32,000 bases of DNA from Nitrosococcus oceani ATCC 19707 (GTDB lineage Bacteria > Pseudomonadota > Gammaproteobacteria > Nitrosococcales > Nitrosococcaceae), in the NCBI RefSeq assembly GCF_000012805.1, contig NC_007484.1, positions 750,001 to 782,000 on the forward strand, in the 5' to 3' direction. A model generated the notes under the pieces. It saw nothing but the letters and a program-made list of their open reading frames with translations, was not told the DNA's origin and searched no databases. Numbering within the stretch: the first letter of the stretch is position 1; each line of letters opens with the position of its first letter. Positions 761 through 17,933 of the stretch are shown here, piece after piece. Both the position numbers and the translations under genes were made by a program.

Positions 761-762
761 AT

Positions 763-1010: not shown

Positions 1011-1064
1011 GGCCGATATAAAACCGATTAAAGGAGCTCTTTTTATTTTTATATAGGAGAAATA

Positions 1065-2171: not shown

Positions 2172-2369
2172 GATTTGCCTCTCCCTGCGTAAAGAAACGC
2201 GATAATCAGACTTTTATATTAACGTAGATTATTTTACTCAGTAAATTGCCTATCCTGGCCGCGACAAGCAAGCAAACAGCGGGGCAGGGCAGCGAGTAAA
2301 ACAAACCCTCGTTGTCTTCAGGCTGTCTGACGCTACGTTTCATTTATCTACTGTGGGAGTAGAAAAAAG

Positions 2370-2675: not shown

Positions 2676-2688
2676 AGCGTTGTTTCCT

Positions 2689-2739
2689 CTAGTGGTAATC
2701 AATATAATTGACCAATTCGATATGAGCAGCTGAGAGTGG
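2689..2739 (-). pseudogene. higB: higB (RelE/ParE-superfamily killer) remnant; only the last ~16 codons remain
   Basis: The minus-strand frame reads PLSAAHIELVNYIDYH then stop (TAG at 2691-2689), 13 nt before the higA ATG. A ..(V/I)DYH end directly upstream of higA is the usual HigB arrangement. An in-frame stop lies just upstream (2742-2740) and there is no N-terminal part. Confidence 0.4.
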
Positions 2740-4097: not shown

Positions 4098-4134
4098 ATA
4101 TTGAGACATTTGTGTTATATTCATTCATACTGTT

Positions 4135-4969
4135 GTGATGAGATGTTCAATTGATTTGCGCAAACGAGTAATCGATTTTGTAAGGGGCGGTGGAAGCAAG
4201 GCGGAAGCGGCCCGGAGATTTCAGGTAGGCCGCGCGAGCATTTATCGCTGGTTGTCGCAGGATGATGCGCTGTGTTACGAGCGTCCCGGCCCTCGCCGTT
4301 CACACAAGCTGGACTGGGAGGCTTTACGGGTCCATGTGGAAGACAAGGCTGCTCTCACCTATAAAGAACGCGCCCGGCATTTTGGCGTTTCGTATTACTG
4401 TATTTGGCATGCGATGCACAAAATGGGGTTAACCCGTAAAAAAAATGACGGGGTACACGCAGCGCTGTAATATGAAAAGAAAGAGCTTTCTTCGCCTTCG
4501 TGAACGCTATCGCCGCCGCGGCAAAAGATTTGTCTATCTTGATGAAAGCGGTTTTGAGCCGGAGGTTTCCCGTCGTTACGCTTACGCTCCAAAGGGGCGG
4601 CGTGTTTATGGTCTGATCTCCGGTCATCGCAGACCGCGAACCTCTTTATTGGCCGCCCGTATGGATGAAGGCTTTGAAGCGCCGTTTCTATTTGAGGGAA
4701 CCTGTAACACGGCTGTGTTCAATGCATGGCTGGAAAAAGAGCTTTGCCCCTTGCTCAACAGCAACCACATTGTCATCATGGATAATGCTCCGTTCCACAA
4801 AGCCGTTTCTTCACGTGAAATCATCAAAAAAACAGGGGCGGGAATTTTATTCCTCCCCCCTTATTCCCCTGACTTTAACCCCATAGAAAAAGACTTCGGA
4901 AATATCAAAAAAATCAGAGAATACAACGAACATGAAACCCTTGAGAATATCGTTGCAGCGTATCAGTAA
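4135..4969 (+). CDS. IS630-family DDE transposase, in two overlapping frames joined at a poly-A tract
   Basis: The N-terminal HTH part (..RKRVIDFVRGGGSKAEAARRFQVGRASIYRWL..) occupies 4135-4470. The catalytic part, with DDE residues in YLDESGF / VIMDNAPFHK / LPPYSPDFNPIEKDF, occupies 4445-4969. The frames overlap at the A8 run 4438-4445. The likely ATG is at 4138. Confidence 0.85.
4438..4445 (+). other. A8 homopolymer at the transposase frame junction (slippage site or frameshift mutation)
   Basis: GTAAAAAAAATGAC. ORF1 is in frame 1 and ORF2 in frame 2, so one nucleotide must be skipped (or two re-read) to fuse ..LTRKK to (K)TGYTQR.. Confidence 0.4.
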
Positions 4970-5057
4970 TTATAGATTTAGCTATAAATGACCTACTTTG
5001 CTTGATTCAAAAGGACGATGACCGCCACTTTGAGGAGATGAAGGCATTGGCCACCAA

Positions 5058-6314
5058 ATGAGAGTCCTTCACACATCCGACTGGCACATAGGGCGTACCC
5101 TGTACGGTAGAAAACGCTATGAGGAGTTCGAAGCCTTTCTGAACTGGCTGGCGGAGACGATTCAGCAGCATGAAATTGATGCCCTGCTGGTGGCAGGTGA
5201 TGTCTTTGACACCAGCACTCCGAGCCATCGTGCTCAGGAGCTCTATTACAGGTTCCTGTGTTGGGTGGCCGCCTCATCTTGTCGGCACGTTATCGTTGTC
5301 GCGGGAAACCACGATTCACCGTCCTTTCTCAATGCTCCCAAGGAGCTACTTAAGGCCCTTGATGTCCACGTGGTTGGAAGCACGACTTCTGACCTGGAAG
5401 AGGAAGTACTGGTGCTCAGGAATGAACAGGACGCTCCAGAACTGATTGTCTGTGCGGTACCTTACCTGCGCGACAGAGATATTCGGGTGGCGGAAGCGGG
5501 TGAGAGCGTCGAGGACAAGGAGCGCAAGCTTATTGATGGTATCCGCACTCATTACGCCGCCGTCGCTGCCCTAGCAGAACAGAAACGCGAGGAACTTGGA
5601 GGCGATATTCCTATCGTCGCTATGGGGCATTTGTTCACCGCTGGCGGACAAACCGTCGATGGCGATGGTGTGCGCGAACTCTATGTGGGCTCCCTGGCCC
5701 ATGTGACAGCCGAGGTTTTCCCGGCGAGCTTTGATTACCTGGCCCTTGGACACCTTCACGTCCCGCAAAAGGTGAAGGGCTCCGAAACCATGCGCTACAG
5801 CGGCTCTCCACTGCCCATGGGGTTCGGCGAGGCAAAACAGCAGAAGAGCGTTTGTCGGGTTGCCTTTGATCCTATAGAGGGTCACAGCAGGGCTGCATCG
5901 GTACAACTGATCGACGTGCCGGTGTTTCAAAAACTCGAGCGCATCAAGGGAGACTGGGGTGGTATTTCAAGCCGCCTCCTTGAATTGTCGGCAATGGGCC
6001 CCCCCAATGGATTAAGAATCTGGCTCGAAGTCATTTACGAAGGTGACGAAGTGGTCGGCGACCTGCGCGAGCGCCTTGAGGCTGCGATTGCCGGCACCCC
6101 AATGGAAATCCTTCGAATAAAGAACAACCGCATCATCGACCGCATGCTGGGACAAATCCATGCAGAGGAAACGCTCGACGATCTGAACGTGAATGACGTA
6201 TTCGAACGATGTCTCGCCATTCATGAGGTGCCTGAAGACCAGCGGCCGGAGCTGCTTAGGGTCTACCGGGAAACGCTCTCGTCTCTTTATGAAGACGACG
6301 TGCAGGCGCAGTAG
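5058..6314 (+). CDS. sbcD: Exonuclease SbcCD, nuclease subunit D (Mre11-like)
   Basis: MRVLHTSDWHIGRTLYG.., ..LLVAGDVFD.., ..VVAGNHDSP.. and ..ALGHLHVPQ.. are calcineurin-like phosphoesterase motifs in SbcD order. The gene lies directly upstream of sbcC. Confidence 0.9.
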   Translation: MRVLHTSDWHIGRTLYGRKRYEEFEAFLNWLAETIQQHEIDALLVAGDVFDTSTPSHRAQELYYRFLCWVAASSCRHVIVVAGNHDSPSFLNAPKELLKALDVHVVGSTTSDLEEEVLVLRNEQDAPELIVCAVPYLRDRDIRVAEAGESVEDKERKLIDGIRTHYAAVAALAEQKREELGGDIPIVAMGHLFTAGGQTVDGDGVRELYVGSLAHVTAEVFPASFDYLALGHLHVPQKVKGSETMRYSGSPLPMGFGEAKQQKSVCRVAFDPIEGHSRAASVQLIDVPVFQKLERIKGDWGGISSRLLELSAMGPPNGLRIWLEVIYEGDEVVGDLRERLEAAIAGTPMEILRIKNNRIIDRMLGQIHAEETLDDLNVNDVFERCLAIHEVPEDQRPELLRVYRETLSSLYEDDVQAQ

Positions 6315-6325
6315 ATGGGCCGGCG

Positions 6326-9300
6326 ATGAGAATACGGCAGGTACGCTTTAAGAATCTGAACTCACTGGTCGGCGAGTGGGAAATCGACTTGACGCACCCA
6401 GCCTTCGTGTCTGATGGCATCTTCGCCATTACAGGCCCTACTGGCGCGGGCAAGACGACTATTCTCGATGCCATTTGTATGGCTCTTTACGGGCGGACGC
6501 CTCGCCTAAACAAGGTCACTAAGCGTGGCAACGAGATTATGTCCCGCCAGACCGGCGAATGCTTTGCAGAGGTGACCTTCGAAACCCAGACTGGGCGTTA
6601 CCGCTGTCACTGGAGCCAGCACCGGGCACGCAAGAAGCCTGATGGCGAGCTCCAGGCTCCGAGACACGAAATTGCCAATGCCGATTCCGGTGAGATTTTC
6701 GAATCCAAAATCAGAGGGGTCGCGGACCAGATCGAGTCGGCTACCGGTATGGATTTCCACCGTTTTACCCGCTCCATGTTACTGGCCCAGGGCGGCTTTG
6801 CCGTGTTCCTCCAAGCGGTGCAGGATGAGCGGGCGCCGATCCTTGAGCAGATCACGGGCACGGAGATTTACAGCCAGATTTCCATCCGTGTTCATGAGCG
6901 CCAACGGGAAGAGCGGGAAAAACTGAACCTGCTTCAGGCTGAAACGGAAGGCATCGTGATGCTTGAGCCGGAACAGGAACAAGAGATTGGGCAGACGCTT
7001 GAGATAAAGCGGAAGGAAGAGGCAGACCTTACCGCCAAGTTCGCCGACACTGGGCAGGCCATGGCCTGGCTCACCACCATCGATGGTCTGAAGAAGGAAA
7101 TCGTCAACCTGGCCGATGAGGTGCGCAAGCTGCAAAACGATATCGAGGCGTTCAGACCGGATCGTGAAAAGCTCAACCGGGCTTTGAGTGCTGCCTCACT
7201 GGACGGCGCATACGCAACGCTCACAGCCATCCGCAAACAGCAGGTGGAGGACAGAGAAGCCTTGAAAGCTGAGGGAGAAGCGCTTCCTGGATTGGAATCC
7301 TCCGCCAAGGAGCAGGCCGAGTCACTAAAATCGGCTGAGCAACAAACCGCTCGGGTCAAAGAAGAGCTAAAAGTTGCCGCACCTACCTTGCAGAAGGTTC
7401 GCTCCCTGGATCAGGAGCTCGCCAATCTCAAAAAAACTGCGGCAGAAGATAAACAGGATTGCCAACAGGATCTTGAAAAGATTGATACAGACAAACAAGC
7501 CCGGCTTGAGGAGCAGGAAAAACGTTCCACGGCTCACGGGAATCTGGAACTTGTTGACAGCTACCTCAAGGAGCATGCACAGGATGAATGGCTGATCAGC
7601 GGCCTGGCTGGTGTGGAAGAACAGGTGAGCAGCCTACTCTCCAGGCAAAATGAAATCCATCAAAAAGAGATTGACCAGGATAAGGCCGCGAAAGCCTTGG
7701 AACAGGCGACAAAGTCACTCGACGATTGTCAGAAGCAATCTGACCTTCGGAAGCAGGCGCTGGAGGACTCATCCAAACAGCTTCAGCAGGGCAAAGATGC
7801 TTTGAGCCAGCTACTGGGGAACCGCTTATTGCGAGAATACCGCACCGAGAAGGAAACCCTGCTGCGTGAAATGGCCTTCCTGGCGAAAATAGCGGAGCTT
7901 GAAGATCACCGGGCAAAACTGGAAGATGGCAAGCCCTGTCCACTTTGCGGCGCAACCGAGCATCCCTTCGCGGCAGGCAATGTCCCTGTTGCCGATGAAT
8001 CCGAACAGAAGATCGACGCGTTGACCAGGCTGATCAGCGAAGTCGAGGATCAGGAAACCGCCATCAAGGAACACGAAAAAGCTGAAAGCTTGGCCCATAA
8101 GGACCTGACGGAGGCTGAAAAACAGGAGTCAGCAGCAGCTAATGGCAGGAAGGTTGCCGAAAAAGCCCTTGCCGAAGTGACGGACAGCTTGGAAAAACTC
8201 CGGGCTGATTTTGCTGAACGCAGGCAGGCCGTTGCTGCCAAACTTCTGCCCCTTGGTATCACGGACATCCCTGAAACGGATATTTCATTACTACCCGAAA
8301 TCCTCAGAGCACGACTGAAGGCGTGGCAGGCCCAGGTCAAGAAAAAGGCGGATATTGAGAAACAGATTACCGACCTCGACAGCGAGGTGAAACGGCTGGA
8401 TGCGGTCATTGAAACCCAAAGCACCGCTCTGGCCGAAAAGCTGAAGCGCCTGGAGAGCTTAAAGAAGGAACTCGCCACCGTGAGTGATGAGCGAAATGCA
8501 CTGTACGGCGGCAAGAATCCCGACGATGAGGAGCGCTGCTTGAACAAGGCGGTTGCTGATGCGGAAGGCGTCGAAAGGTGGGTCAGAGAGCAGCACAATG
8601 AACTCCAGCAACAATGGAAAACCGGGAAGGCCCTTGTCGAATCGTTGAAGAAAGGCATTGACCAACGAGAGCCGGAACTGAGTAGGCTGGAAACAGAATT
8701 CTTCGCAGCACTTGTGTCCGTGGATTTTTCAAATGAAGAACAGTATCTGGCAGCCCTATTGTCTTCAGAGCGGAGGGCTGAGCTGGTGACTACGGCCAAG
8801 GATCTGGATGATTGCCAAACGGACCTCAAGGCTAGGCAAAAAGATCGGGAAACGCACTTGGCTACGGAAATGGCCAAAAAGGTTACTGACCAATCTATTG
8901 AGGAACTGGAGTCGCAATCCAAGGAGTATGAAAACACACTGAAAGAGCTGCGAGATATCATTGCCAGTCTTAAGCATAAGCTCAGTGAGAATATGGCTGC
9001 CAAAGAGCGGCTAAAGGAGAAGCAAGGGGCTATCGAAGCCCAGAAAAAAGAATGTCGCAGGTGGAAGAACCTGCATGAATTAATCGGCTCCGCAGATGGT
9101 AAGAAGTACCGCAATTTTGCCCAGGGGTTGACCTTTGAAGTGATGGTTGGCCATGCCAACCGGCAACTGCGGAAAATGACTGACCGTTACTTGCTAGTCC
9201 GTGACGAGGCTCAGCCCCTGGAGCTCAACGTGGTTGACAATTACCAGGCTGGGGAGATTCGGTCCACGAAGAACCTTTCCGGCGGTGAAAGCTTTATCGT

Positions 9301-9601
9301 CAGCCTGTCCCTGGCGCTGGGTTTGTCCCATATGGCCAGCAAGAATGTCCGGGTGGACTCGCTGTTCCTGGATGAAGGCTTCGGCACCCTGGACGAAGAA
9401 GCCCTCGACACCGCCTTAGAAGCCCTTGCGGGCCTGCAGCAGGATGGCAAGCTGATCGGGATCATTTCACACGTACCTGCCTTGAAAGAACGGATTAGCT
9501 CCCAAATCCAGGTAACACCTCAAACCGGTGGCAGGAGCAAGATATCGGGGCCTGGATGCGGTGGGTTGAGTGCTGCAAAATGGGCCAAAGAAGCGGGTTA
9601 A
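6326..9601 (+). CDS. sbcC: Exonuclease SbcCD, ATPase subunit C (Rad50-like)
   Basis: Walker A is ITGPTGAGKTTILDAI. Long coiled-coil arms are present, with the zinc hook GKPCPLCGATEHP (about 7931-7960). The ABC signature is LSGGESF and the Walker B/D-loop is SLFLDEGFGTLD. Confidence 0.9.
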   Translation: MRIRQVRFKNLNSLVGEWEIDLTHPAFVSDGIFAITGPTGAGKTTILDAICMALYGRTPRLNKVTKRGNEIMSRQTGECFAEVTFETQTGRYRCHWSQHRARKKPDGELQAPRHEIANADSGEIFESKIRGVADQIESATGMDFHRFTRSMLLAQGGFAVFLQAVQDERAPILEQITGTEIYSQISIRVHERQREEREKLNLLQAETEGIVMLEPEQEQEIGQTLEIKRKEEADLTAKFADTGQAMAWLTTIDGLKKEIVNLADEVRKLQNDIEAFRPDREKLNRALSAASLDGAYATLTAIRKQQVEDREALKAEGEALPGLESSAKEQAESLKSAEQQTARVKEELKVAAPTLQKVRSLDQELANLKKTAAEDKQDCQQDLEKIDTDKQARLEEQEKRSTAHGNLELVDSYLKEHAQDEWLISGLAGVEEQVSSLLSRQNEIHQKEIDQDKAAKALEQATKSLDDCQKQSDLRKQALEDSSKQLQQGKDALSQLLGNRLLREYRTEKETLLREMAFLAKIAELEDHRAKLEDGKPCPLCGATEHPFAAGNVPVADESEQKIDALTRLISEVEDQETAIKEHEKAESLAHKDLTEAEKQESAAANGRKVAEKALAEVTDSLEKLRADFAERRQAVAAKLLPLGITDIPETDISLLPEILRARLKAWQAQVKKKADIEKQITDLDSEVKRLDAVIETQSTALAEKLKRLESLKKELATVSDERNALYGGKNPDDEERCLNKAVADAEGVERWVREQHNELQQQWKTGKALVESLKKGIDQREPELSRLETEFFAALVSVDFSNEEQYLAALLSSERRAELVTTAKDLDDCQTDLKARQKDRETHLATEMAKKVTDQSIEELESQSKEYENTLKELRDIIASLKHKLSENMAAKERLKEKQGAIEAQKKECRRWKNLHELIGSADGKKYRNFAQGLTFEVMVGHANRQLRKMTDRYLLVRDEAQPLELNVVDNYQAGEIRSTKNLSGGESFIVSLSLALGLSHMASKNVRVDSLFLDEGFGTLDEEALDTALEALAGLQQDGKLIGIISHVPALKERISSQIQVTPQTGGRSKISGPGCGGLSAAKWAKEAG

Positions 9602-10074: not shown

Positions 10075-11484
10075 GTGACCGAAGATTGGATCAGTTATCT
10101 TTCTGCAGCGTTCCGGTTTGTCGACCTCCATGACAGTGCACGGAGTTTCGGGGTTACACCCACTACTCTTAAGGAAGAGCGGACAGGACGGCGTGACGGA
10201 GTATGGCTACATCTGGCATGCCATTTACTTTCCTACCTCGATGAATGCGACCTGGAAACCAACGAAGGATGGAATTCTATTGGGCCATTCGTAAAAAATA
10301 TTCGTGGTAGATACCGGCACCTGAAGGACGATGATATTCAGCTGATCATTAGCTATCTGTCTACGCCGACTGAGATTTATTTTCTAAAAGACGAGTCGGC
10401 CGAAAGGCAACTGCGCGTTGCCAGTACAAAAGACACAGCACTGATTGAGCGTCGATCGGCCCGGGGGCAGACGGACTTGTGTCGTCTGACTCAGCGGGGC
10501 CGCTTGGCCATTACCTTGGCTAAGGTGTCACACAATTGGCTCTATACTCATCACGATGCAGACAAATTGATGACGGCGCTCCAGTATGGAGAATTCCATG
10601 ACATCCCACGGCAATGTGCTTCTCTTGGGCAGTCGATCCGAGCGTTTGCACATGAAATCACCCGGACCATGGAGCAGCCAGGAAAAAACGACGTCATTGT
10701 GCATTTTCTTGATCGCGGCAATCAGTACCTCGATTCCATTCGTAAGGTTCAAACGGCTGTACAGAATGCGCGTGAATACCTGGGAACCGTGGATGTACGA
10801 GAGCGTTTTAATCAATGGTTAGATCAGAATGAAGACATGGGACTGGATCTCGGAGTGATACGTCGAACGCTGGATGAACTTATGCAGACGGTTGAGCGTT
10901 TGAGCCGTCGTTTCTCTGCCTTTCTTCATCAGGTCACTGGCACACAACGTGAGGTGGTTGGGGCTATTCCATTCGAGAAGGTGGCACTGGCGTTCGTGTT
11001 TCAGGCGCCTTCATTTCCACTAATGGATATGCTGGCCGGCAAACTTTGGGCATGGCTGCCGCAAATGTGTTTCAGTGCGCCTGAGGACATGCAGGGTATT
11101 CTCCGAGCGGAAATTGATCGGCACCAGATCAGTCAGCCGAAGGTTTTTGGGGAAGACACTAACACTATACGAAAACGAACAGTTATGGAGCTGTTTGTTC
11201 ACGAACACCGCGAGGCAATGTTGACTGCCTTGAAAGCAGGCCCGGTACGGCTCAGTACAGCGTTCACAATGGGCTGGGCAAAGATTGCGGGCCAGTGCCA
11301 TTTGACTGAACTGGTCGGTATCTATAGCGCCCCTTCGTGGCTGGGCTGTGGCAGCGACGCCATCCAGCTTACACTCAAGCCAGGTAGCCTGGATGCCCAT
11401 GTGGAAGGACGCACTTGGTTGGCGGGAGATGACATCGAAATGCGGTTGGTTCAGAAACAAGGAGAGAGCAATGGACTTAAATGA
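10075..11484 (+). CDS. jetA: Putative kleisin-like subunit of a Wadjet/Mks-type SMC system (JetA/MksF position), 469 aa
   Basis: It is the first gene of a tightly packed four-gene operon. Its size and position match JetA/MksF. No enzymatic motif was recognised and the assignment rests on context only. It starts at GTG with a weak RBS, so the start is uncertain. Confidence 0.55.
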   Translation: MTEDWISYLSAAFRFVDLHDSARSFGVTPTTLKEERTGRRDGVWLHLACHLLSYLDECDLETNEGWNSIGPFVKNIRGRYRHLKDDDIQLIISYLSTPTEIYFLKDESAERQLRVASTKDTALIERRSARGQTDLCRLTQRGRLAITLAKVSHNWLYTHHDADKLMTALQYGEFHDIPRQCASLGQSIRAFAHEITRTMEQPGKNDVIVHFLDRGNQYLDSIRKVQTAVQNAREYLGTVDVRERFNQWLDQNEDMGLDLGVIRRTLDELMQTVERLSRRFSAFLHQVTGTQREVVGAIPFEKVALAFVFQAPSFPLMDMLAGKLWAWLPQMCFSAPEDMQGILRAEIDRHQISQPKVFGEDTNTIRKRTVMELFVHEHREAMLTALKAGPVRLSTAFTMGWAKIAGQCHLTELVGIYSAPSWLGCGSDAIQLTLKPGSLDAHVEGRTWLAGDDIEMRLVQKQGESNGLK

Positions 11485-12268
11485 TATGGGACAATTGCAT
11501 GCCTTTCTCATGCGGTACCGGTGCATTGAATCGCGCCCGCGTAGCCGCAATTTGCGGCGCAATGAAAGTGAGCTGGCCAGCATCTTAATCGAATCCGGCA
11601 CTGAAGGTCTTGAACAGATGAATCGTTTTCTTGCCGCTCAAGGCTTGGATCTGATCGAATTTACGGATACGGATATGCCGGGTATCACCACGGGTGGCCG
11701 AGTATGGGTACTTGCACGCAGTCTGGAAGCTGCGCCTCCAGCATACTTTTCGATTGAACAAGTGATGGGGCGCATGAAGTTGCGGGATGATAGCCGCGAG
11801 GTAGCGGCAGTCTGGTATCTGCATATCTGGCTTATTCACTTGGCGCTACTGTACAGCCACAAGGGGCGGGCGGTGTCGGCAGTCTCGGGGTACCTGGATA
11901 GTGCCTTTGAAAAGGAGACTCTGATTCAGTGCGTGCGAGATCACATTGAACGTGTCCGGGGTGTTGGTCTTGAGACGGGGGCAGAACAACGTGTTTACCA
12001 GATCCTAACGGATGAGCGCGGCACGGATATTCCCAAACGGGTCCGGATGTTTCTAGGGTTGATGGTGGATTCTGGATTGCTTAGCCGTGCTGACAGCGGC
12101 GTTTACGAACAAACTTTACTGGGTGCTGTGGAGATCCGCCAAAACTTTAGCCGGACCCTGCAGCACATCCTTCCGGATGAGGATGCCCTGTCCAATATTG
12201 TTAACCTCTCTGCACCGGTAGCAGAGAAAGGAGAAGAGGAGGAAGCAGGGATGAAGGAAACGGAGTAA
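11471..12268 (+). CDS. jetB: Putative KITE-like subunit (JetB/MksE position), 265 aa with an acidic C-terminal tail
   Basis: The ATG at 11471 is preceded by AAGGAGAGAG and overlaps the upstream stop by 14 nt. Its size fits a tandem winged-helix protein. The tail is ..AEKGEEEEAGMKETE. The assignment is by position and size. The longer track ORF (from 11348) overlaps jetA and is not preferred. Confidence 0.5.
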   Translation: MDLNDMGQLHAFLMRYRCIESRPRSRNLRRNESELASILIESGTEGLEQMNRFLAAQGLDLIEFTDTDMPGITTGGRVWVLARSLEAAPPAYFSIEQVMGRMKLRDDSREVAAVWYLHIWLIHLALLYSHKGRAVSAVSGYLDSAFEKETLIQCVRDHIERVRGVGLETGAEQRVYQILTDERGTDIPKRVRMFLGLMVDSGLLSRADSGVYEQTLLGAVEIRQNFSRTLQHILPDEDALSNIVNLSAPVAEKGEEEEAGMKETE

Positions 12269-12270
12269 CC

Positions 12271-15200
12271 ATGTCTACAATCAATCGCATAGAGATCGCT
12301 AATTTTCTCAACCTCAATGGCGAGGGAGAAGCGGAGATATGGGAACCACGTTATCGTGCTGTGACCTTCAACTTCCATGGTCAGTCTACGGCATTGAATA
12401 TGACAAATGGAGTAGGCAAGACCAGCAATGTCGAGGCGTGGCTTGCTCTGCTCACCCGAGATCCGCAGCTGATTTCGAGAACCCGCGAAAAGATGGCACC
12501 GGAGCGTGATGGCTACTACTCGCACATTCGGATTGAATTTGTCGTCCCTGAGCGGGGTGCGACGGTACACGATGATCTTTTCGTCCAGCAGGGGTCACCG
12601 GTGGGCGGCAAGGAAACCTGGGTGTTTGGCATGTATGGCTATCGGTCTGCAGGAAGCATCAATTTCTATTACTACCGTGGCAGTCTAGGGCAAGTACCGG
12701 TGGCCGATACAACCACCAGGGCGGTGGCCTTGTTACCTAACCAAGAATTTCGCGCAGCGCTAAAGGCCGCGGAACGTAATCGGCATAACCCCGTGCGGGA
12801 AGATTGGATTGCCGAGTTAAGTTTGCATGTTTCTCCCGTCAGCATGCGGCGCCAAGCGGAGTATCAAAAGCGAGGGGGTGGCGACAAGAGTGCCGAGCTG
12901 TTTGCCTTAAAGAGTCGCAAGGGCGAGAACTATGATGTCACCTTCTTCTATGAAATCATCGCCCCCGAGTTATTGTCCGGGCTCATGGATCGAGAAGGAG
13001 AAGAAGGCGAACATGAGTTAGAGGATACCATCCTCAATGCGGTGATGGATGTGATTCGCACGCGCCATAACACCCTTCGCAAAAAGATTGAGTTGGAAAA
13101 AGTGAAAGAGGTGTTAGGTGTTCTGGACGAAAATGCAGGGAAGGCGGCGGAGGCGGAGCAGGCGCAAGGACAGTATGAGCAGCAGCGAACGCGCATGGCT
13201 CAAGATGTTGCGCTACTTCAGAATTTAGTCCAACAACAGCCCTTGCCGGGTATCCCTGAATCACCGAGCGGGAAGGATCTTATTGATAGACTAAAGGCCA
13301 GCATCATCATTGAACTGGGAAATCGGGACTATCGGGTTCTTGATGCTGGCATCGCAGGCTTGACCGGAGAATCAGTTAGAGCTCTAAATCAGCGTGCCCA
13401 TGAGGCTCGGTCAGAAGGGCGCAAAATTCCACAAGCTATTGTAATACCCTGTGATAGTTCATCCGGTGAGCGCTCGAGCCTAAAACCTAATTCGTACACT
13501 CCGGCCGTGGCGCGTGATCTTGTGGAATCGAGTAGCAGGTGGGCCAATGGTCTCACTCGACAGATGGCATTGGGTCTGCTCGAGGATCTGGAGAGGTGGT
13601 TTTTGAGTGATGCCGCGCACCGTAACCCCTATCGCACTGAACGAAATGAGCTTGAATACGATATCGAACAGTTAGGACGTGATTTGAGTGCCCAGCAGGA
13701 ACGGAGCAGTGCGATTGCTCAGGAACTTGATGGGCTGCGCGATCAACAAACGCGCATGAAAGAGGATGAGGCCGCTTATAGAGATGTGCAGGCCAGCGGT
13801 GAATTCACCGAAGAGGAATGGAGCGATCCGGGACGCACGGCAGAACAGGTGGTGATTGAGTACCAAAAAGCTGACCAAGCACGGATGGAATTTCTAGGAA
13901 AAAAAGCTCGTATCGAGGTATGGAAGCCGCAATGGGATGACTTTATCCGTCGATTTCCAGAGGAGCCCGATCCAGAAATAGTTCACCAGCAACACCAGGA
14001 AGCCAAGGGAATTGCCGCCCAACACCTGGATGAAGCCAGCCGGCAGAAGGAACAGGCAGAAGATGAAGGCCGTGCCCTGCACGCCAAGGCATCAGAGGGA
14101 GAGTCGGCAGCCACCAGCTACCGGACTCAGGCGGAGCGATTTGATCGGCTGGATGGAGCCCTCGGGACTTATGCTAAGGAATTTGGCAATGAATCTCCCA
14201 CCCGGCTGGATAATCGGGTGGTTCAGGAAAAGGTACAGGCTGAAGCAGATATCAATGCCACGCGTGAGAAGATCGCGAGGTTCCAATCAATGGCGGACGA
14301 TCTGATGCGGTTTTACAGTGAGACGGGGGCCTCCTCTCCAACTGATTGGTTGTCAGCATGTGAGAAAAAGCGAGCCAAGCTCCAGGCGCGTAAGCCAGTG
14401 GTGGAAAGGGAAAGGTCCGAGCTAATACGCCAGCGTCAGGACCTTGAGGAAGAACAGGTTGCAGCCAACCCTTCTGCCCGGCAGGCATTGGACTACCTTG
14501 ACGCAGCCGATGTCCCCTTTAGCCCACTGCATCGGGCCATCGAAGCAATGGGTTTGGATGGCGATCGGCGGAGGGGAGTGCTTTCCTGTTTCTCAGCGGT
14601 CCTGTTTGCACCGGTGGTGGCAACAGACGACGCAGCCCTTGCGGCAGCAGCATGTCTTGCCGAACATGACGTTCAGATCCCCGTGTTTATGGTTGGTGCC
14701 TTGGAGTCCTTCGCAAGGGAGGGGGATTTGAAGGCTGATAAGGACCAGGACTTTTACTACGGGCTGATTGCCGGTGTGACCACCAGGGCTGTCGCCTGCC
14801 TTCTAGATCCGGGTCTCGTGGAACGCGAGAAGGAACGTTTGGATAGTCTCATTGGTAATTTGGTTCAAGAGGCAGGTCAGATCGAGCGCCGGTTAAAGGC
14901 TACGGCCGAAAGCGCACCCTTGATCGTACTGGCCCGTAAGGCACAACTCGCGGTCGAGGCCAATGCTGAATCGGAGCTAACGCGACATAGCGAGCATCTG
15001 AGGACCCTCGAAGACCGTCTACCGATCTTGAAACGGCGCGCATCGGACGAATCACTGAATGCTATTCGGGCAGCTCAGGAGTTTGACCGACTCGGTGGTC
15101 AAAGGAAACGTGATGAGGTCATCCGCAACCTAGAGGAACAGAAACGGCGGCTGGACGACCTTCGGCGCAGGGAGGAGCAGAACAGAACTCAGCGCGAAGC

Positions 15201-16857
15201 ATTAGTACAGGAAGTGAGTGGGGCACAGCAGCGCTTGGAGGTAGCTTACCCTGCTGATCTTCGGGTGTTACTGGAACAGGCGAAGGAGTTCTCAATTCAA
15301 GGAGGTGTCGAGTTCCTTAAGTCGGCACCACGCCGGGAGCAGGAACTGGCAGAAGTGTTGAACCGGGCAAATGCCCGCAAGGAGTACCGCCTGAATCTAG
15401 TCCGGGCAGTAACATATCTGGCTGCAATCCAACGGGCACAAGCGGGAGAGGATATCAATGAGTTGATCGCTAAAAAGAAGGGCGAACTCAAACAGGCGAG
15501 GACCGAGGTTGCTCGTGTGTCCGGGAAGCGGGACGAGTTAATTGCGCGCTGCGAGCCCTTGGACGATGCGATGAAAGCCGTCGATCAGGCAGCTCAGTTG
15601 GCCCTGCAGCATTTTCAACCAGCGTCTAGGGTAGCTCTCGATCTGCCGGGCAGGGATATTGATCGCGAACAGTTGGAATCCAATGAGATTTTTCAGCAAG
15701 CCGATTCGCTACGGGTGGCTGTCGAAAGAGGCTATGACTTGGCGGAGGTGGTTCGACAGGCTGAAACACTCCAGGATCTGCTAAGTCAGTTGGAGATTGA
15801 AAGGGATCTGCAGGAGTTGCGTAGGCTGAAAAATCAGAGTGACAATCACAGGAATACATTTCTTGAGTCAGTCCATCAAGCGAGCAAATATGAAGGGTTA
15901 GGCGATGTTGAACGAGAGAGACTGCAGACGGTTCGAGATCTGAGCGGCACCCAACTCGTTATTGCCATGGCTCGGGATATCCGTGAGATCTATGAGCGAG
16001 AACGATCTCTATATGAGCAGGCCGCGGAGGCTGAGAGCGAGAGCCGCTCACTGGTGACCAAGCGGATTGGTTACTTCATTGAATCGGCACAGGACAATCT
16101 GGATTTGTTTAAACGTGTGGCCAGGGCAAAGCACGGCAATGAGTCGGCACATTTCCAAGTGTCGGCGGATATGATCTCCCGTGAGGAGTCCGAAGCGCTG
16201 ATAGAAAATATAATTTCCACTCTTGATGAAGAGGAAGCAGCACGTAAGAAGCGCCAAAAGCGGGGGATGGAAAATACCGAGAGCGGCGATCAATACCGTG
16301 GCCGGCTTCGTGATCTCATCCGGCAAAACACTTATCGTCGTATTTTTAGATCGCCATCGGTTAAGTATGTGAGTCCCCATATTCGAAACGATGAGCGTCC
16401 ACGATCCTTAACTCGGAGTCTCAGCAGCGGGCAGCGCACGGCCATGACCTTGCAGTGGATTATCCGGCTAGCGGAGTTTGCTATATCCAGGGAACTACAA
16501 GGCTCTATCTCGCGCGTTTCCGCGCGTCGGCGTGCGAGAGAGCGGGCCCAGAGTATTCTCTTCATTGACGGGCTGTTCTCGGATCTATCTGATGAGCAGC
16601 TTATCCGGGAAGCCATGAGCGGTATTCGTAATACTCGGGGGCGGTTCCAGTTGATTGGCTTGATACACAATACGAAATACACCAACGATTTCGATGTATT
16701 TCCCGTACTGCTCTTGGGCAAGGTCATTACCAGCCTTAATGGTTTCGGCGGTTGGGTCATTATTGATGAGAATAATGAAGAGACCAGCACTTTGGCTGAC
16801 ACGGTGCAGGTAGCCGAACTCCGTAAGGAGGTGCGGCCGGCCGAGAATGATAGATGA
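12271..16857 (+). CDS. jetC: SMC/ABC-type ATPase with long coiled coils and a central hinge-like region (JetC/MksB-like), 1528 aa
   Basis: - N-terminal head: INRIEIANFLNL..ALNMTNGVGKTSNVEAW, with Walker A at 12397-12426.
- Two long E/R/Q/A/L-rich coiled-coil stretches.
- A non-coiled A/G/V-rich segment at about 14500-14830 (..FSAVLFAPVVATDDAALAAAACLAEHDVQIPVFMVGALESF..).
- C-terminal head: signature LSSGQRTAMTL (about 16420) and Walker B SILFIDGLFSDLSDE (about 16552-16596).
- An RBS (ACGGAG) lies before the ATG. Confidence 0.8.
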   Translation: MSTINRIEIANFLNLNGEGEAEIWEPRYRAVTFNFHGQSTALNMTNGVGKTSNVEAWLALLTRDPQLISRTREKMAPERDGYYSHIRIEFVVPERGATVHDDLFVQQGSPVGGKETWVFGMYGYRSAGSINFYYYRGSLGQVPVADTTTRAVALLPNQEFRAALKAAERNRHNPVREDWIAELSLHVSPVSMRRQAEYQKRGGGDKSAELFALKSRKGENYDVTFFYEIIAPELLSGLMDREGEEGEHELEDTILNAVMDVIRTRHNTLRKKIELEKVKEVLGVLDENAGKAAEAEQAQGQYEQQRTRMAQDVALLQNLVQQQPLPGIPESPSGKDLIDRLKASIIIELGNRDYRVLDAGIAGLTGESVRALNQRAHEARSEGRKIPQAIVIPCDSSSGERSSLKPNSYTPAVARDLVESSSRWANGLTRQMALGLLEDLERWFLSDAAHRNPYRTERNELEYDIEQLGRDLSAQQERSSAIAQELDGLRDQQTRMKEDEAAYRDVQASGEFTEEEWSDPGRTAEQVVIEYQKADQARMEFLGKKARIEVWKPQWDDFIRRFPEEPDPEIVHQQHQEAKGIAAQHLDEASRQKEQAEDEGRALHAKASEGESAATSYRTQAERFDRLDGALGTYAKEFGNESPTRLDNRVVQEKVQAEADINATREKIARFQSMADDLMRFYSETGASSPTDWLSACEKKRAKLQARKPVVERERSELIRQRQDLEEEQVAANPSARQALDYLDAADVPFSPLHRAIEAMGLDGDRRRGVLSCFSAVLFAPVVATDDAALAAAACLAEHDVQIPVFMVGALESFAREGDLKADKDQDFYYGLIAGVTTRAVACLLDPGLVEREKERLDSLIGNLVQEAGQIERRLKATAESAPLIVLARKAQLAVEANAESELTRHSEHLRTLEDRLPILKRRASDESLNAIRAAQEFDRLGGQRKRDEVIRNLEEQKRRLDDLRRREEQNRTQREALVQEVSGAQQRLEVAYPADLRVLLEQAKEFSIQGGVEFLKSAPRREQELAEVLNRANARKEYRLNLVRAVTYLAAIQRAQAGEDINELIAKKKGELKQARTEVARVSGKRDELIARCEPLDDAMKAVDQAAQLALQHFQPASRVALDLPGRDIDREQLESNEIFQQADSLRVAVERGYDLAEVVRQAETLQDLLSQLEIERDLQELRRLKNQSDNHRNTFLESVHQASKYEGLGDVERERLQTVRDLSGTQLVIAMARDIREIYERERSLYEQAAEAESESRSLVTKRIGYFIESAQDNLDLFKRVARAKHGNESAHFQVSADMISREESEALIENIISTLDEEEAARKKRQKRGMENTESGDQYRGRLRDLIRQNTYRRIFRSPSVKYVSPHIRNDERPRSLTRSLSSGQRTAMTLQWIIRLAEFAISRELQGSISRVSARRRARERAQSILFIDGLFSDLSDEQLIREAMSGIRNTRGRFQLIGLIHNTKYTNDFDVFPVLLLGKVITSLNGFGGWVIIDENNEETSTLADTVQVAELRKEVRPAENDR

Positions 16858-17933
16858 GCCCCATGCCGTTGCGCGACCGCATTACCAATTATCTGCGAAA
16901 GAGAGCCCGGATGAATGCCTCATTACGTGGAAATGGACTAGTTGAGCGGCTTGTGCGCGATCTCCAATGTGATCGCACGGAGGTACTTCGCGAATTCCGG
17001 GAACTGCGCGCAGAAGGAATCCTTGTATGCGACGATTGGCTGCGAGAAGAGCCCCTCAGCAAGGTAACCGTCAATCTTCCGGAAGAATCCAACCCAACGG
17101 TCAAGCTTTGGCACGCTGTGCTGGAACAGGCGGCTAAAATACAGGGCGAATTCGCCGCATTGGAACCTTTGGGTGAAATTATGGAAGGGCTCCATGCGTC
17201 CGAGATGACGGGGCTATTGAATGGTCTCGTCTCGTTGAAGCAAGACCAAGAGCGTCTGCATAACACACCTAGGTTTGAGGTCAGTGCCCGGTATCTACTC
17301 GGCTCATCCAAGTTGCTGGACGCTTTGCCAACTGCATCTTTGCGGCAGTTCGGCATTGATGTCAATCGTTTTCCGGCCTTTCCCGGATATGTCATGGTGG
17401 CCGGCCCACCGGATCCTTGTGTAGTAGTCTTAGTTGAGAACCCACACGCCTTTGAGTGTGCACTCGATGCCCGGGGTACAGATAGAGCGGCTTGGGTGTG
17501 CACCTATGGTTATGGGCTGAGTCTGAAGTACAGCCAACATGGTGAGCAGCTTGCCGCGATTCTTGAGAGCCGGATTCCGCCGAGGACAGTGGTTCGAAAA
17601 GGCAGCCCACCTAGTTGGGACACGCTTCTTCGTCATGACTGGATTCGCTTTTGGGGGGATCTAGACTTTGAGGGCCTTGCGATCTTCGAAAGGCTACGTA
17701 GGTACAATCCGAGCATAGTATTGAGCGGACTCTATAAGCCGATGGTTGATTGTTTGCGCGAAGGTGAAGGGCATCCGTACTGTAAGGCCGTGGGGAAGAC
17801 AGGACAGGCGCCCAATAAGTATGGCAATGATATTGCGCCATTATTAGCCCTCTGCCTGGAGCAAGCGGTGGATCAGGAGTTTGTGTCGAAAAGCCAGATT
17901 TCACAGTGGTGGGATACTGAGCTTGAGATCTGA
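16854..17933 (+). CDS. jetD: Toprim-motif protein (JetD/MksG-like putative nuclease), 359 aa
   Basis: It has an ATGA start/stop overlap with jetC. The C-terminal half carries Toprim-like motifs spaced as in the TopoVI-A/JetD fold: VVVLVENPHAFE (E195, 17436-17438) and FWGDLDFEGLAIFERLR (D269-x-D271, 17658-17666). Confidence 0.7.
   Translation: MSPMPLRDRITNYLRKRARMNASLRGNGLVERLVRDLQCDRTEVLREFRELRAEGILVCDDWLREEPLSKVTVNLPEESNPTVKLWHAVLEQAAKIQGEFAALEPLGEIMEGLHASEMTGLLNGLVSLKQDQERLHNTPRFEVSARYLLGSSKLLDALPTASLRQFGIDVNRFPAFPGYVMVAGPPDPCVVVLVENPHAFECALDARGTDRAAWVCTYGYGLSLKYSQHGEQLAAILESRIPPRTVVRKGSPPSWDTLLRHDWIRFWGDLDFEGLAIFERLRRYNPSIVLSGLYKPMVDCLREGEGHPYCKAVGKTGQAPNKYGNDIAPLLALCLEQAVDQEFVSKSQISQWWDTELEI

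What the first reader, a model, noticed from the sequence alone, without database searches (positions are those of the whole stretch)
10075..17933. Intact four-gene SMC operon (kleisin-like / KITE-like / 1528-aa SMC ATPase / Toprim protein): a divergent Wadjet (JetABCD/MksBEFG)-type system, possibly an unclassified subtype
**Seen in the sequence.**
- Four same-strand ORFs are packed with a 14-nt overlap, a 2-nt gap and a 4-nt ATGA overlap, which indicates translational coupling.
- Gene 3 has a split ABC head: Walker A NGVGKTS at the N-terminus, and LSSGQR plus Walker B at the C-terminus. The two halves are separated by two very long coiled-coil stretches and a central non-coiled hinge-like block.
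- Gene 4 has an E...DxD Toprim-type motif pair (VENPHAF, GDLDFEGLAIF).

**Established knowledge.** The combination SMC-like ATPase + kleisin + KITE + Toprim nuclease defines Wadjet/MksBEFG. These systems extrude loops on small circular DNA, cleave it, and so restrict plasmids.

**Inference.**
- Genes 1 and 2 are assigned only by size and position. I do not recognise the N-terminal signatures I associate with the DUF3375 or DUF2397 JetA families.
- JetC is unusually long and JetD unusually short.
- This may therefore be a subtype outside types I-III.
- It is the only undamaged accessory module in a stretch otherwise full of decayed mobile and defence genes, which suggests ongoing selection.
Basis: partly seen in the sequence, partly recalled or inferred. 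Interest (0 to 1): 0.9.

Follow-up and report, generated by a model that had tools for sequence, protein, structure and literature searches.

The report
Divergent fourth-type Wadjet SMC-nuclease system
This is an intact four-gene DNA-defence operon distantly related to the plasmid-cutting Wadjet system; standard annotation models recognise only its nuclease, and its motor protein lacks the glutamate that known Wadjet motors need to burn ATP.

Summary
Four intact, tightly coupled same-strand genes (469, 265, 1528 and 359 aa; Nitrosococcus oceani Noc_0705-0708) form an operon. Its order is kept in every complete related locus I found.

Gene 4 is a clear JetD Toprim nuclease. Genes 1-3 hit nothing in Pfam, PADLOC, NCBIfam or PDB sequences. 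Profile-profile comparison with type I Wadjet profiles I built, and AlphaFold/Foldseek, link gene 3 to JetC/MukB and gene 1 to JetA/MukF. Gene 2 is linked to JetB only weakly (E 0.023), so its KITE role rests mainly on position and size.

The family is rare: 38 of 185,579 species genomes, about 196 clusters among 1.84 billion representatives. It is under purifying selection and often sits next to a WYL/BrxR regulator.

It differs from types I-III in four ways:
- MukB-length arms.
- A ~130-aa globular insertion above the head.
- An H-loop histidine.
- A Walker B Asp-Gly instead of Asp-Glu in every family member checked, plus Ser for the D-loop Asp.

The JetC E-to-Q mutant is dead in type I, so the ATPase cycle here may differ.

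Verdict: new variant of a known kind. Function is inferred, not tested.

The parts
10075..11484 (+). Gene 1 (Noc_0705, 469 aa): kleisin subunit, JetA/MukF-like. Layout: N-terminal winged-helix region, helical bundle, disordered linker (~289-365), C-terminal winged-helix-like domain.
   Evidence: AF2 model pLDDT 70. Foldseek PDB top hits: MukF 9gm7_C (E 1.5e-4), Wadjet-II JetA 9qe1_E (E 1.2e-3), MukF 3euh/3rpu. hhalign against a 28-sequence type I JetA profile: 61.6%, E 7.8e-5, residues 36-461 against 34-494; cross-controls are 0.4% or lower. No Pfam, PADLOC or NCBIfam hit.
11471..12268 (+). Gene 2 (Noc_0706, 265 aa): putative KITE subunit (JetB/MukE position). Assignment is weak.
   Evidence: Always lies between the kleisin and SMC genes. 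Size fits a single KITE. hhalign against JetB is colinear but weak (E 0.023, 2.1%). Its C-terminal half matches the JetA N-terminal winged helix (E 1.5e-3). No hit in Pfam, PADLOC, NCBIfam or PDB.
12271..16857 (+). Gene 3 (Noc_0707, 1528 aa): SMC-family ATPase, JetC/MukB-like. N-head 1-245, neck helix 250-322, globular insertion 323-452, arm helices 453-745, hinge 746-847, return arm from 848 (the model ends at residue 1200), C-head ending at 1528.
   Evidence: AF2 model of residues 1-1200, pLDDT 83.4. Foldseek: MukB 7nyx_A 8e-16, 9gm7_A 1.5e-14, Wadjet-II JetC 9qe0_B 3.0e-13 and 9qe0_A 5.0e-13, MukB hinge 3ibp prob 1.0. hhalign against JetC: 96.8%, E 2.8e-10, near full-length at low mact. Head-only: 95.2%, E 2.6e-8.
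12406..12426 (+). Gene 3 Walker A / P-loop, N46-G-V-G-K50-T-S52
   Evidence: N46, G47, G49 and K50 are invariant in 45 homologues. Aligned with JetC GSTGVGKSS by hhalign.
13237..13626 (+). Gene 3 residues 323-452: family-specific globular alpha/beta domain inserted in the head-proximal N-arm
   Evidence: Mixed helix/strand segment between the long helices 250-322 and 453-508; most 10-residue blocks have pLDDT 85-92, dipping to 60-71 around a disordered loop at 397-403. Conserved motifs PLPGxP and DTNPYR. No Pfam or PDB sequence match. No counterpart in JetC.
14506..14811 (+). Gene 3 hinge (residues 746-847), MukB-type; no CxxC zinc hook
   Evidence: Second conservation peak of the protein. Alpha/beta fold in the model. 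Foldseek hit to the MukB dimerisation domain 3ibp, prob 1.0. The sequence contains no CxxC.
16420..16434 (+). Gene 3 ABC signature motif L1384-S-S-G-Q1388
   Evidence: S1385, G1387 and Q1388 are 90% or more conserved. Aligned with JetC SGGE by hhalign.
16555..16572 (+). Gene 3 Walker B I-L-F-I-D1433-G1434: Gly replaces the catalytic Glu. The D-loop position is Ser1440.
   Evidence: The regex found Asp-Gly in 156 of 157 matched long family members (one 'LIDRVFT'). Five of the six non-matches show DG by eye; the sixth, P0056, shows no Walker B in the tail printed. All canonical JetC with a matched motif have Asp-Glu. hhalign pairs FIDGLFS with MIDEAFD. BLASTP pairs LFIDGLF with LFLDEGF of the window's own SbcC.
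16648..16668 (+). Gene 3 H-loop Q1460-L-I-G-L-I-H1466
   Evidence: H1466 is 90% or more conserved. Canonical JetC has AMP[ST] or similar, without His, at the aligned position.
16854..17933 (+). Gene 4 (Noc_0708, 359 aa): JetD-type Toprim nuclease
   Evidence: PADLOC JetD1 PDLC00527 8.1e-20, residues 73-346 against model 104-383 of 387. Pfam JetD_C and DUF2399 above their cut-offs. hhalign against JetD: 99.6%, E 2.3e-24.
17436..17441 (+). Gene 4 Toprim catalytic E195-N196
   Evidence: Invariant across 21 family members and 2 canonical JetD.
17652..17666 (+). Gene 4 Toprim W267-G-D269-L-D271 (DxD metal site)
   Evidence: W267, G268, D269 and D271 are invariant across the family and canonical JetD.

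Best explanation
The operon encodes a very divergent Wadjet-type (JetABCD-like) SMC-nuclease complex.

**Shown by homology and structure prediction**
- Gene 3 is a MukB/JetC-like SMC ATPase with a hinge and arms of about 50-55 nm.
- Gene 1 is a MukF/JetA-like kleisin.
- Gene 4 is a JetD Toprim nuclease with all catalytic residues intact.

**Inferred from position only**
- Gene 2 is the KITE partner.

**Inferred mechanism, by analogy with type I and II Wadjet**
- Gene 3 dimerises at the hinge.
- The kleisin closes the ring between neck and cap and binds a gene 2 dimer.
- The holocomplex loads on DNA and uses its ATPase cycle to scan it, presumably by loop extrusion.
- When it senses a small circular or otherwise foreign DNA, it licenses the gene 4 dimer to cut.
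- The result is restriction of plasmids or other invading DNA.

**How the family departs from known Wadjet**
- Asp-Gly instead of Asp-Glu in Walker B.
- Ser instead of the D-loop Asp.
- A retained H-loop His.
- A ~130-aa globular insertion above the head.
- Frequent linkage to a WYL/BrxR regulator.

The kinetics or chemistry of ATP hydrolysis probably differ from type I. Whether true loop extrusion is retained is open.
For: - **Gene 4 is JetD.**
- **Gene 3 is JetC/MukB-like.** hhalign 96.8%, E 2.8e-10; head-only 95.2%, E 2.6e-8. All cross-controls are 1% or lower except gene 2 against the JetA winged helix, 17.1%. The AF2 model has pLDDT 83.4. Foldseek ranks MukB, then Wadjet-II JetC, then condensin, Smc5/6, cohesin and Rad50, with the MukB hinge at prob 1.0.
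- **Gene 1 is a kleisin.**
- **Gene order is conserved.** The four-gene order is kept in all 38 genome loci with flanks, in L001/L002 and in Burkholderia plasmid pMSMB43.
- **The arms behave as an antiparallel coiled coil.** Insertions in the N-arm (after residue 664) and C-arm (after 968 and 1000) co-occur in the same subfamily.
- **The genes are under purifying selection.** dN/dS 0.11-0.20.
- **The context looks like defence.** A WYL/BrxR regulator lies next to gene 1 in about 23 loci. Neighbours include ubiquitin-like, ThiF, PLD and HNH genes. The taxonomic spread is patchy, and orthologues are about 83-88% identical across gammaproteobacterial orders.
- **Published mechanism of canonical Wadjet.** 10.1101/2022.10.04.510915, PMC10586767 and 10.1101/2025.03.10.642339.
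Against: - Nothing was tested functionally.
- Gene 2 has no significant similarity to any KITE (E 0.023 at best). No structure could be predicted for it.
- The Walker B catalytic Glu is absent in every family member checked. The equivalent E1022Q change abolishes ATP hydrolysis, DNA cleavage and plasmid restriction in E. coli JetABCD. A hydrolysis-driven extrusion mechanism therefore cannot simply be assumed.
- The C-terminal head half (residues 1201-1528) was not modelled. The active-site geometry and any compensating residue are unknown.
- The kleisin Foldseek hits have low TM-scores (0.15-0.2) because the model is multi-domain and flexible.
- The hinge shows no significant sequence similarity to the JetC hinge (E 0.078).
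Confidence: 0.7

Rival explanations
1. The proteins are the same, but the complex works as an ATP-binding clamp or sensor rather than a loop-extruding motor. With Gly in place of the Walker B Glu and Ser in place of the D-loop Asp, the heads would engage on ATP but hydrolyse very slowly. The complex would clamp a target DNA structure and switch on the JetD nuclease, with slow hydrolysis acting as a timer. This resembles what is proposed for Lamassu LmuB, which naturally carries Glu-to-Gln.
For: - Asp-Gly in 156 of 157 regex matches and in 5 further family members by eye, against Asp-Glu in all canonical JetC checked.
- The alignment is confirmed against both JetC and SbcC.
- JetC(EQ) cannot hydrolyse ATP.
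- There is a precedent: the natural E-to-Q in LmuB (PMC10586767).
Against: - The family keeps Walker A Lys, the Q-loop Gln, the signature motif and an H-loop His. It also keeps MukB-length arms, which are costly if no motor function is needed.
- In some ABC ATPases the H-loop His carries much of the catalysis (from my own knowledge, not tested here).
- Conserved acidic residues (E247, E251, D252, E1442) could substitute for the missing Glu.
- No structure of the assembled head was obtained.
Confidence: 0.25
2. The system mainly targets phages or other linear invaders rather than small circular plasmids.
For: - It is linked to BrxR/WYL regulators and defence-island neighbours typical of anti-phage systems.
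- The remodelled ATPase and extra domain could mean a different trigger.
Against: - Published work on type I and type II Wadjet describes plasmid restriction, and type I cuts circular DNA specifically.
- The catalytic residues and most of the fold of JetD are conserved.
- No phage-related evidence was found here.
Confidence: 0.15
3. It is a chromosome- or replicon-organising condensin (MksBEF/MukBEF-like). The Toprim protein would act as a topology partner rather than a defence nuclease.
For: - The arms are MukB-like in length and the best structural match is to MukB.
- The system occurs on large plasmids.
Against: - It is present in only 38 of 185,579 species genomes, with a patchy phylogenetic spread and signs of recent transfer.
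- Its neighbours differ from locus to locus.
- WYL regulators accompany it.
- The JetD catalytic residues are conserved.
- A truncated copy lies beside a Tn3 transposon. These are features of an accessory defence gene, not a housekeeping one.
Confidence: 0.05

Closest known systems
Type I Wadjet (JetABCD; PADLOC JetA1/B1/C1/D1), especially the subclade represented by the Cupriavidus taiwanensis and Variovorax plasmid systems (L043, L044)
   Same: - Four genes in the order kleisin, KITE, SMC, Toprim nuclease, translationally coupled.
- JetD is clearly homologous, with identical catalytic residues.
- JetC and JetA are homologous at the profile-profile level.
- The KITE-position gene has the size of a single, unfused KITE.
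- The system occurs on chromosomes and on large plasmids.
   Different: - No PADLOC, Pfam or NCBIfam model for JetA, JetB or JetC fires.
- The SMC is 1528-1900 aa against about 1100-1220 aa.
- The arms are about 54 nm if straight, against 29.5 nm for E. coli JetC.
- There is an extra ~130-aa globular domain at residues 323-452.
- Walker B is DG, not DE; the D-loop has Ser, not Asp; an H-loop His is present where JetC has none.
- A WYL/BrxR regulator is frequent.
MukBEF (E. coli condensin)
   Same: - Best Foldseek matches for gene 3 (MukB 7nyx_A, 9gm7_A; hinge 3ibp) and gene 1 (MukF 9gm7_C, 3euh).
- Comparable arm length (58 nm in MukB).
- Globular elaboration near the neck (the MukB 'larynx').
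   Different: - MukBEF has no nuclease subunit.
- MukBEF is a vertically inherited housekeeping system of some gammaproteobacteria.
- MukB has Walker B DE.
- There is no significant sequence similarity (best E 0.26 at the P-loop).
Type II Wadjet (Neobacillus vireti JetABCD-II, PDB 9qe0/9qe1)
   Same: - Foldseek matches for gene 3 (3.0e-13 to 5.0e-13) and gene 1 (1.2e-3).
- Arms longer than in type I (41 nm).
   Different: - Type II has a fused tandem KITE and a distinct JetD aCAP fold. Here the KITE-position gene is single-sized.
- JetD here scores best against type I models.
Lamassu LmuB (Rad50-like SMC-like defence ATPase)
   Same: A defence-associated coiled-coil ABC ATPase that naturally lacks the Walker B glutamate (E-to-Q in LmuB; PMC10586767).
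   Different: - LmuB is about 650 aa with roughly 20-nm coils, often a zinc hook, and no kleisin, KITE or JetD partners.
- Here there is a hinge, long arms, a kleisin and JetD.

Membership tests
Wadjet (JetABCD/MksBEFG) in the broad sense | JetD-type Toprim nuclease subunit with a catalytic Glu and a DxD motif | tested here: met
   PADLOC JetD1 8.1e-20; Pfam JetD_C and DUF2399 above their cut-offs; hhalign 99.6%. E195, D269 and D271 are invariant and shared with canonical JetD.
Wadjet (JetABCD/MksBEFG) in the broad sense | SMC-family ATPase (JetC, MukB-like): split ABC head, long antiparallel coiled coil, hinge dimerisation domain | tested here: met
   hhalign against JetC: 96.8%, E 2.8e-10; head-only 95.2%. 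AF2 model pLDDT 83.4. Foldseek: MukB 8e-16, JetC-II 3e-13, MukB hinge prob 1.0. Arm insertions are paired between the N- and C-arms.
Wadjet (JetABCD/MksBEFG) in the broad sense | Kleisin subunit (JetA/MukF-like) with an N-terminal winged helix plus bundle, a flexible linker and a C-terminal winged helix | tested here: met
   The Foldseek top five are all MukF or JetA chains (E 1.5e-4 to 9e-3). hhalign against JetA: E 7.8e-5 over 384 columns. The predicted domain order fits. Support is moderate, not strong.
Wadjet (JetABCD/MksBEFG) in the broad sense | KITE subunit (JetB/MukE-like tandem winged helix) | tested here: inconclusive
   hhalign against JetB gives only E 0.023 (colinear), and the C-terminal half resembles a JetA winged helix (E 1.5e-3). 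Nothing in Pfam, NCBIfam or PDB. No structure prediction was possible. Position and size fit.
Wadjet (JetABCD/MksBEFG) in the broad sense | Conserved operon order jetA-jetB-jetC-jetD | tested here: met
   Same order and tight coupling in all complete loci.
Wadjet (JetABCD/MksBEFG) in the broad sense | Catalytic Walker B glutamate in JetC, required for ATP hydrolysis, DNA cleavage and restriction in type I | tested here: not met
   Asp-Gly in every family member where the motif could be read (156 of 157 regex matches, plus 5 by eye), against Asp-Glu in all canonical JetC checked. The requirement in type I comes from 10.1101/2022.10.04.510915.
Wadjet (JetABCD/MksBEFG) in the broad sense | Restriction of small circular plasmids by ATP-dependent cleavage | not testable with these tools
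   Needs transformation or plasmid-stability assays and biochemistry.
Wadjet types I, II or III as currently modelled | JetA, JetB and JetC recognised by the type-specific models (PADLOC JetA1-3/B1-3/C1-3; Pfam DUF3375, DUF4194, DUF3584 and similar; TIGR02677/8/80) | tested here: not met
   Zero hits for genes 1-3 in PADLOC, Pfam and NCBIfam, even at E up to 1. The same PADLOC models score up to 1e-209 on a canonical locus. The N-head profile finds only about 196 family members among 1.84 billion representatives and does not reach canonical JetC.
Rad50/SbcC family | Zinc-hook (CxxC) dimerisation and an Mre11/SbcD nuclease partner | tested here: not met
   The apex region 746-847 has no CxxC and folds as a MukB-type hinge. 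The adjacent sbcDC pair is separate and is not linked in any other locus.
MukBEF/MksBEF condensins | Three-gene SMC-kleisin-KITE system without a nuclease, housekeeping distribution | tested here: not met
   A JetD gene is always present. The system is rare, patchy and horizontally transferred.

The most novel reading that the evidence does not exclude
This is a fourth, previously undescribed Wadjet type in which every SMC motor checked has lost the canonical catalytic glutamate and the D-loop aspartate. Either it hydrolyses ATP through a new catalytic arrangement (for example H-loop His centred, or an acidic residue from elsewhere in the head), or it senses and destroys foreign DNA without hydrolysis-driven loop extrusion. 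Either outcome would show that the SMC-kleisin-KITE architecture can be used for immunity with a fundamentally altered ATPase cycle.
Probability: 0.3. Interest if true: 0.8.

Novelty: new variant of a known kind. Interest (0 to 1): 0.66.

Why it matters
- **Detection gap.** PADLOC-DB 2.0, Pfam and NCBIfam recognise only the JetD gene here. Model-based detection would therefore most likely miss this system, so the diversity of SMC-based immunity is probably underestimated.
- **A natural experiment.** The family is a Wadjet-like complex with MukB-length arms, an extra head-proximal domain and a Walker B site lacking the glutamate. Laboratory E-to-Q mutants show that glutamate is essential in type I. 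Working out how this complex cycles ATP would test how tightly plasmid sensing is tied to ATP-hydrolysis-driven loop extrusion.
- **Evolution of bacterial SMCs.** It shares JetD and the gene order with Wadjet, MukB-like arm length with MukBEF, and an H-loop His with Smc/Rad50. It may therefore help to place Wadjet, MksBEF and MukBEF relative to one another.
- **Practical use.** Model organisms such as Nitrosococcus, Thiobacillus denitrificans, Bradyrhizobium and Burkholderia carry it. It may be one reason some of them are hard to transform.

Tried and rejected
**Searches that found nothing useful**
1. Direct HMM searches of genes 1-3 against Pfam, PADLOC and NCBIfam found nothing relevant. Scanning every family member separately gave only noise: helical-bundle families for gene 1, and single sub-threshold MksE (0.045) and DUF4194 (0.69) hits for gene 2. 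I do not count these as evidence.
2. phmmer and profile hmmsearch against PDB sequences returned only coiled-coil noise, plus a non-significant MukB P-loop hit (E 0.26).
3. A profile of the gene 3 N-head run against 1.84 billion representatives recovered only the family itself and gave no bridge to JetC.
4. hhalign against two-sequence canonical profiles found nothing. It worked only after I built profiles of 24-32 sequences from 80 metagenomic Wadjet loci.
5. The inserted domain (residues 323-452) has no match in Pfam or PDB sequences.
6. The promoter/terminator scan was uninformative.
7. Literature searches for a type IV Wadjet, the locus tags or the RefSeq protein ids found nothing.

**Limits of the tools**
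The last job went to gene 3 instead.

**Ideas rejected**
9. sbcDC is not part of the system; it is not linked in any other locus.
10. The apex of gene 3 is not a Rad50 zinc hook; there is no CxxC.
11. The N. oceani copy is not a decaying pseudogene set; the ORFs are intact and full length, and dN/dS is 0.11-0.20.

Full report

Yes. The window comes from Nitrosococcus oceani ATCC 19707: gene 3 is 100% identical to Noc_0707, and genes 1 and 2 to Noc_0705 and Noc_0706.

Four + strand ORFs lie at 10075-11484 (469 aa), 11471-12268 (265 aa), 12271-16857 (1528 aa) and 16854-17933 (359 aa). Reading the DNA confirms a 14-nt overlap, a 2-nt gap and an ATGA overlap, with GGAG-type sites before genes 2 and 3.

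In gene 3 these are the Walker A N46-G-x-G-K50, the signature S1385-x-G-Q1388 and the Walker B Asp1433. In gene 4 they are E195 and D269-x-D271.

**2. Is it a unit?**

A scan of one genome per species (185,579 species) with a gene 3 pattern found 38 loci. They come from Gamma-, Beta- and Alphaproteobacteria, Desulfopila, a Sulfurimonadaceae MAG and a Zixibacteria MAG.

In every locus with enough flank, homologues of all four genes occur in the same order and are tightly packed. The same holds for two further loci and for the conjugative 305-kb plasmid pMSMB43 of Burkholderia humptydooensis. On that plasmid, PGAP names genes 1-3 'hypothetical protein' and gene 4 'JetD domain-containing'.

Against the roughly 83-88% identical orthologues in Ca. 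Thiodiazotropha endolucinida, dN/dS is 0.13, 0.11, 0.13 and 0.20. The N. oceani copy is therefore intact and under purifying selection.

**3. What are the proteins?**

*Gene 4* is unambiguous.
- PADLOC JetD1 model PDLC00527 scores 8.1e-20 over residues 73-346.
- Pfam JetD_C and DUF2399 are above their gathering scores.
- Aligned with canonical JetD from two plasmid-borne type I systems (L043, L044), it shares K153, E195-N196, W267-G-D269-x-D271, H307, K315, Q318 and Q341-E342.

*Genes 1-3* gave no hit at all in Pfam, PADLOC or NCBIfam, nor against PDB sequences.
- A profile of the gene 3 N-terminal head was searched exhaustively against 1.84 billion cluster representatives. It found 196 proteins, 190 of them at E of 1e-10 or better, and nearly all full-length ones are 1500-1900 aa.
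- The family is therefore sharply isolated in sequence space.

To go further I collected 80 canonical Wadjet loci from metagenomes and built JetA, JetB, JetC and JetD profiles of 24-32 sequences. I then ran hhalign in a 4 x 4 design, so that the twelve mismatched pairs serve as controls.

| Pair | Probability | E-value | Notes |
|---|---|---|---|
| gene 4 vs JetD | 99.6% | 2.3e-24 | |
| gene 3 vs JetC | 96.8% | 2.8e-10 | residues 4-1523 vs 3-1198 at low mact |
| gene 1 vs JetA | 61.6% | 7.8e-5 | 384 columns, nearly end to end |
| gene 2 vs JetB | 2.1% | 0.023 | colinear |

Eleven of the twelve controls were at 1% or lower. The exception was gene 2 against the N-terminal winged helix of JetA (17.1%, E 1.5e-3), which is itself consistent with a winged-helix protein.

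To exclude a coiled-coil artefact I repeated the test on heads alone.
- N-head vs JetC N-head: 95.2%, E 2.6e-8.
- C-head vs JetC C-head: E 1.5e-3.
- Cross-pairs: 0.7% or lower.

**4. Structure predictions**

*Gene 1* (29-sequence alignment, pLDDT 70) has an N-terminal helical/winged-helix part, a long helical bundle, a disordered linker (~289-365) and a C-terminal helix-plus-hairpin domain. Its five best Foldseek hits in the PDB are all kleisins: MukF 9gm7_C (1.5e-4), Wadjet-II JetA 9qe1_E (1.2e-3), and MukF 9gm7_D, 9gm9_D and 3euh_B. TM-scores are low, as expected for a flexible multi-domain model.

*Gene 3*, residues 1-1200 (45-sequence alignment), gave pLDDT 83.4. The layout is:
- an alpha/beta head up to about residue 245;
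- a 73-residue neck helix (250-322);
- a mostly confident globular alpha/beta segment (323-452);
- arm helices 453-745;
- an alpha/beta hinge (746-847);
- the returning arm, from 848 to the end of the model at residue 1200.

Foldseek ranks MukB first (7nyx_A 8.2e-16, 9gm7_A 1.5e-14), then Wadjet-II JetC (9qe0_B 3.0e-13, 9qe0_A 5.0e-13), then condensin, Smc5/6, cohesin and Rad50. The isolated MukB hinge (3ibp) matches with probability 1.0.

The longer subfamilies (about 1650-1900 aa) carry insertions at matching distances on both arms: after residue 664, and after 968 and 1000. This is what an antiparallel coiled coil requires.

There are about 366 helical residues between head and hinge. If the arm is straight, which I infer rather than measured, it would be about 54 nm. 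That is close to MukB (58 nm) and nearly twice E. coli JetC (29.5 nm).

*Gene 2* could not be modelled. Its KITE role rests on invariant position, size and the weak profile signal.

**5. What is unusual?**

(a) *The ATPase site.*
- hhalign pairs gene 3 F-I-D1433-G-L-F-S-D-L-S1440 with JetC M-I-D-E-A-F-D-K-M-D.
- BLASTP pairs the same stretch with L-F-L-D-E-G-F of the SbcC encoded in this window.
- The Walker B catalytic Glu is therefore Gly, and the D-loop Asp is Ser.
- Among 163 family members of at least 1400 aa, a regex matched the motif in 157. Of these, 156 have Asp-Gly and one reads 'LIDRVFT'.
- Five of the six non-matches show Asp-Gly by eye. The sixth (P0056) shows no Walker B in the C-terminal stretch printed.
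- All canonical JetC with a recognisable motif have Asp-Glu.
- Conversely, the family keeps an H-loop His (Q-L-I-G-L-I-H1466), where JetC has no His. The same holds for MukB, from my own recollection of its sequence.
- In E. coli JetABCD the E1022Q change abolishes ATP hydrolysis, DNA cleavage and plasmid loss (10.1101/2022.10.04.510915).
- The only precedent I found for a natural loss of this Glu in a defence SMC-like protein is LmuB of Lamassu (PMC10586767).

(b) *The 323-452 insertion.* It has no counterpart in JetC and no match in Pfam or PDB sequences. MukB has a globular 'larynx' at the neck base. The domain here sits one long helix further up, near where SMC joints lie. I could not inspect coordinates.

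(c) *A WYL/BrxR-type regulator.* It lies directly beside gene 1 in about 23 of the loci and on pMSMB43. N. oceani has none.

**6. Mechanism**

*Shown:* homology of three subunits to JetA, JetC and JetD; intact nuclease residues; SMC architecture; operon conservation; purifying selection.

*Inferred:* an SMC dimer closed by the kleisin and decorated by a gene 2 dimer loads on DNA, uses its ATPase cycle to interrogate it, and licenses the Toprim dimer to cut foreign DNA, most likely small circular replicons as in types I and II.

*Open:* whether this cycle is true loop extrusion, given the Asp-Gly Walker B. I put about 0.7 on the general statement and about 0.25-0.3 on a substantially different, hydrolysis-poor or re-wired cycle.

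A housekeeping condensin role is unlikely because of the system's rarity, patchiness, variable neighbourhoods, regulator linkage and a transposon-truncated copy.

**7. Comparison and novelty**

The system works like, and is homologous to, Wadjet. Its JetD is closest to a type I subclade. It fails the type I-III model tests for JetA, JetB and JetC, and it fails the Walker B Glu feature. I file it as a new variant, effectively a candidate fourth type, not as a member of an existing type.

Searches of the held literature for a type IV Wadjet, 'Wadjet-like' systems of this kind, the locus tags or the RefSeq ids found no description. Papers outside that library cannot be excluded.

**8. Context in the window**

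- Window 1-5000 carries IS and defence debris: an IS6-type DDE fragment, a resolvase, an HTH protein, an AAA_13 fragment and a DDE_3 fragment.
- sbcD and sbcC (5058-9601) are intact and unrelated to the system.
- A 473-bp spacer precedes gene 1.
- Downstream genes are housekeeping: TRAP transporter, sucCD, bamD, bipA and pilS.

Noticed in passing
L042 8310-10053 (Pseudomonas aeruginosa plasmid pPUV-6, NZ_MT732184.1): A truncated copy of the system. Only the last ~220 aa of a gene 3 homologue (31% identity) and a gene 4 homologue (39% identity) remain, next to a Tn3-family transposon carrying mer genes. Genes 1 and 2 are absent.
   Followed up: partly
L002 14136-14702 (also L010, L011, L012, L016, L025; Thiobacillus/Hydrogenophilales group): A fifth gene of 188 aa with a Pfam Zn_ribbon_Top1 domain lies downstream of gene 4 in six loci. 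It directly abuts or overlaps gene 4 in five of them and lies 1.35 kb downstream in L016. It may be an accessory subunit of one subclade.
   Followed up: no
L002 4873-5739, L045 1328-2140 and about 20 other loci, immediately upstream of gene 1: A ~280-aa WYL/BrxR-type regulator (Pfam WHD_BrxR, WYL, BrxR_CTD) lies beside gene 1, mostly divergently transcribed, in about 23 of 38 loci. It is absent from the N. oceani window, where tblastn finds no remnant.
   Followed up: partly
window 2897-3367 (+): A 156-aa ORF matches only positions 60-185 of the 713-position Pfam AAA_13 model. It is a fragment of a larger ABC-type ATPase and sits among IS fragments: DDE_Tnp_IS240 at 55-549(-), resolvase at 1599-2171(-), DDE_3 at 4445-4969.
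   Followed up: no
window 5058-9601 (+): An intact sbcD (418 aa) and sbcC (1091 aa, AAA_23 plus SbcC_Walker_B) pair lies directly upstream. It is a second coiled-coil ABC ATPase in the same window. It is not linked to the system in any other locus, and it served as an internal reference for the Walker B alignment.
   Followed up: yes
window 12271-16857, gene 3 residues 201-250: This is a strongly conserved stretch: GGGD, FFYxxxAPELL, and the acidic patch E247/E251/D252. Its pLDDT is low (about 50-68), probably because its partner, the C-terminal head half, was left out of the model. It is a candidate source of a substitute catalytic carboxylate.
   Followed up: no
L043 and L044 (Cupriavidus taiwanensis 578-kb and Variovorax 801-kb plasmids); L045 (Burkholderia 305-kb plasmid): Both canonical type I Wadjet and the new family occur on very large plasmids. 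That fits the published size limit of about 100 kb for Wadjet targets, under which such replicons would escape self-restriction.
   Followed up: no
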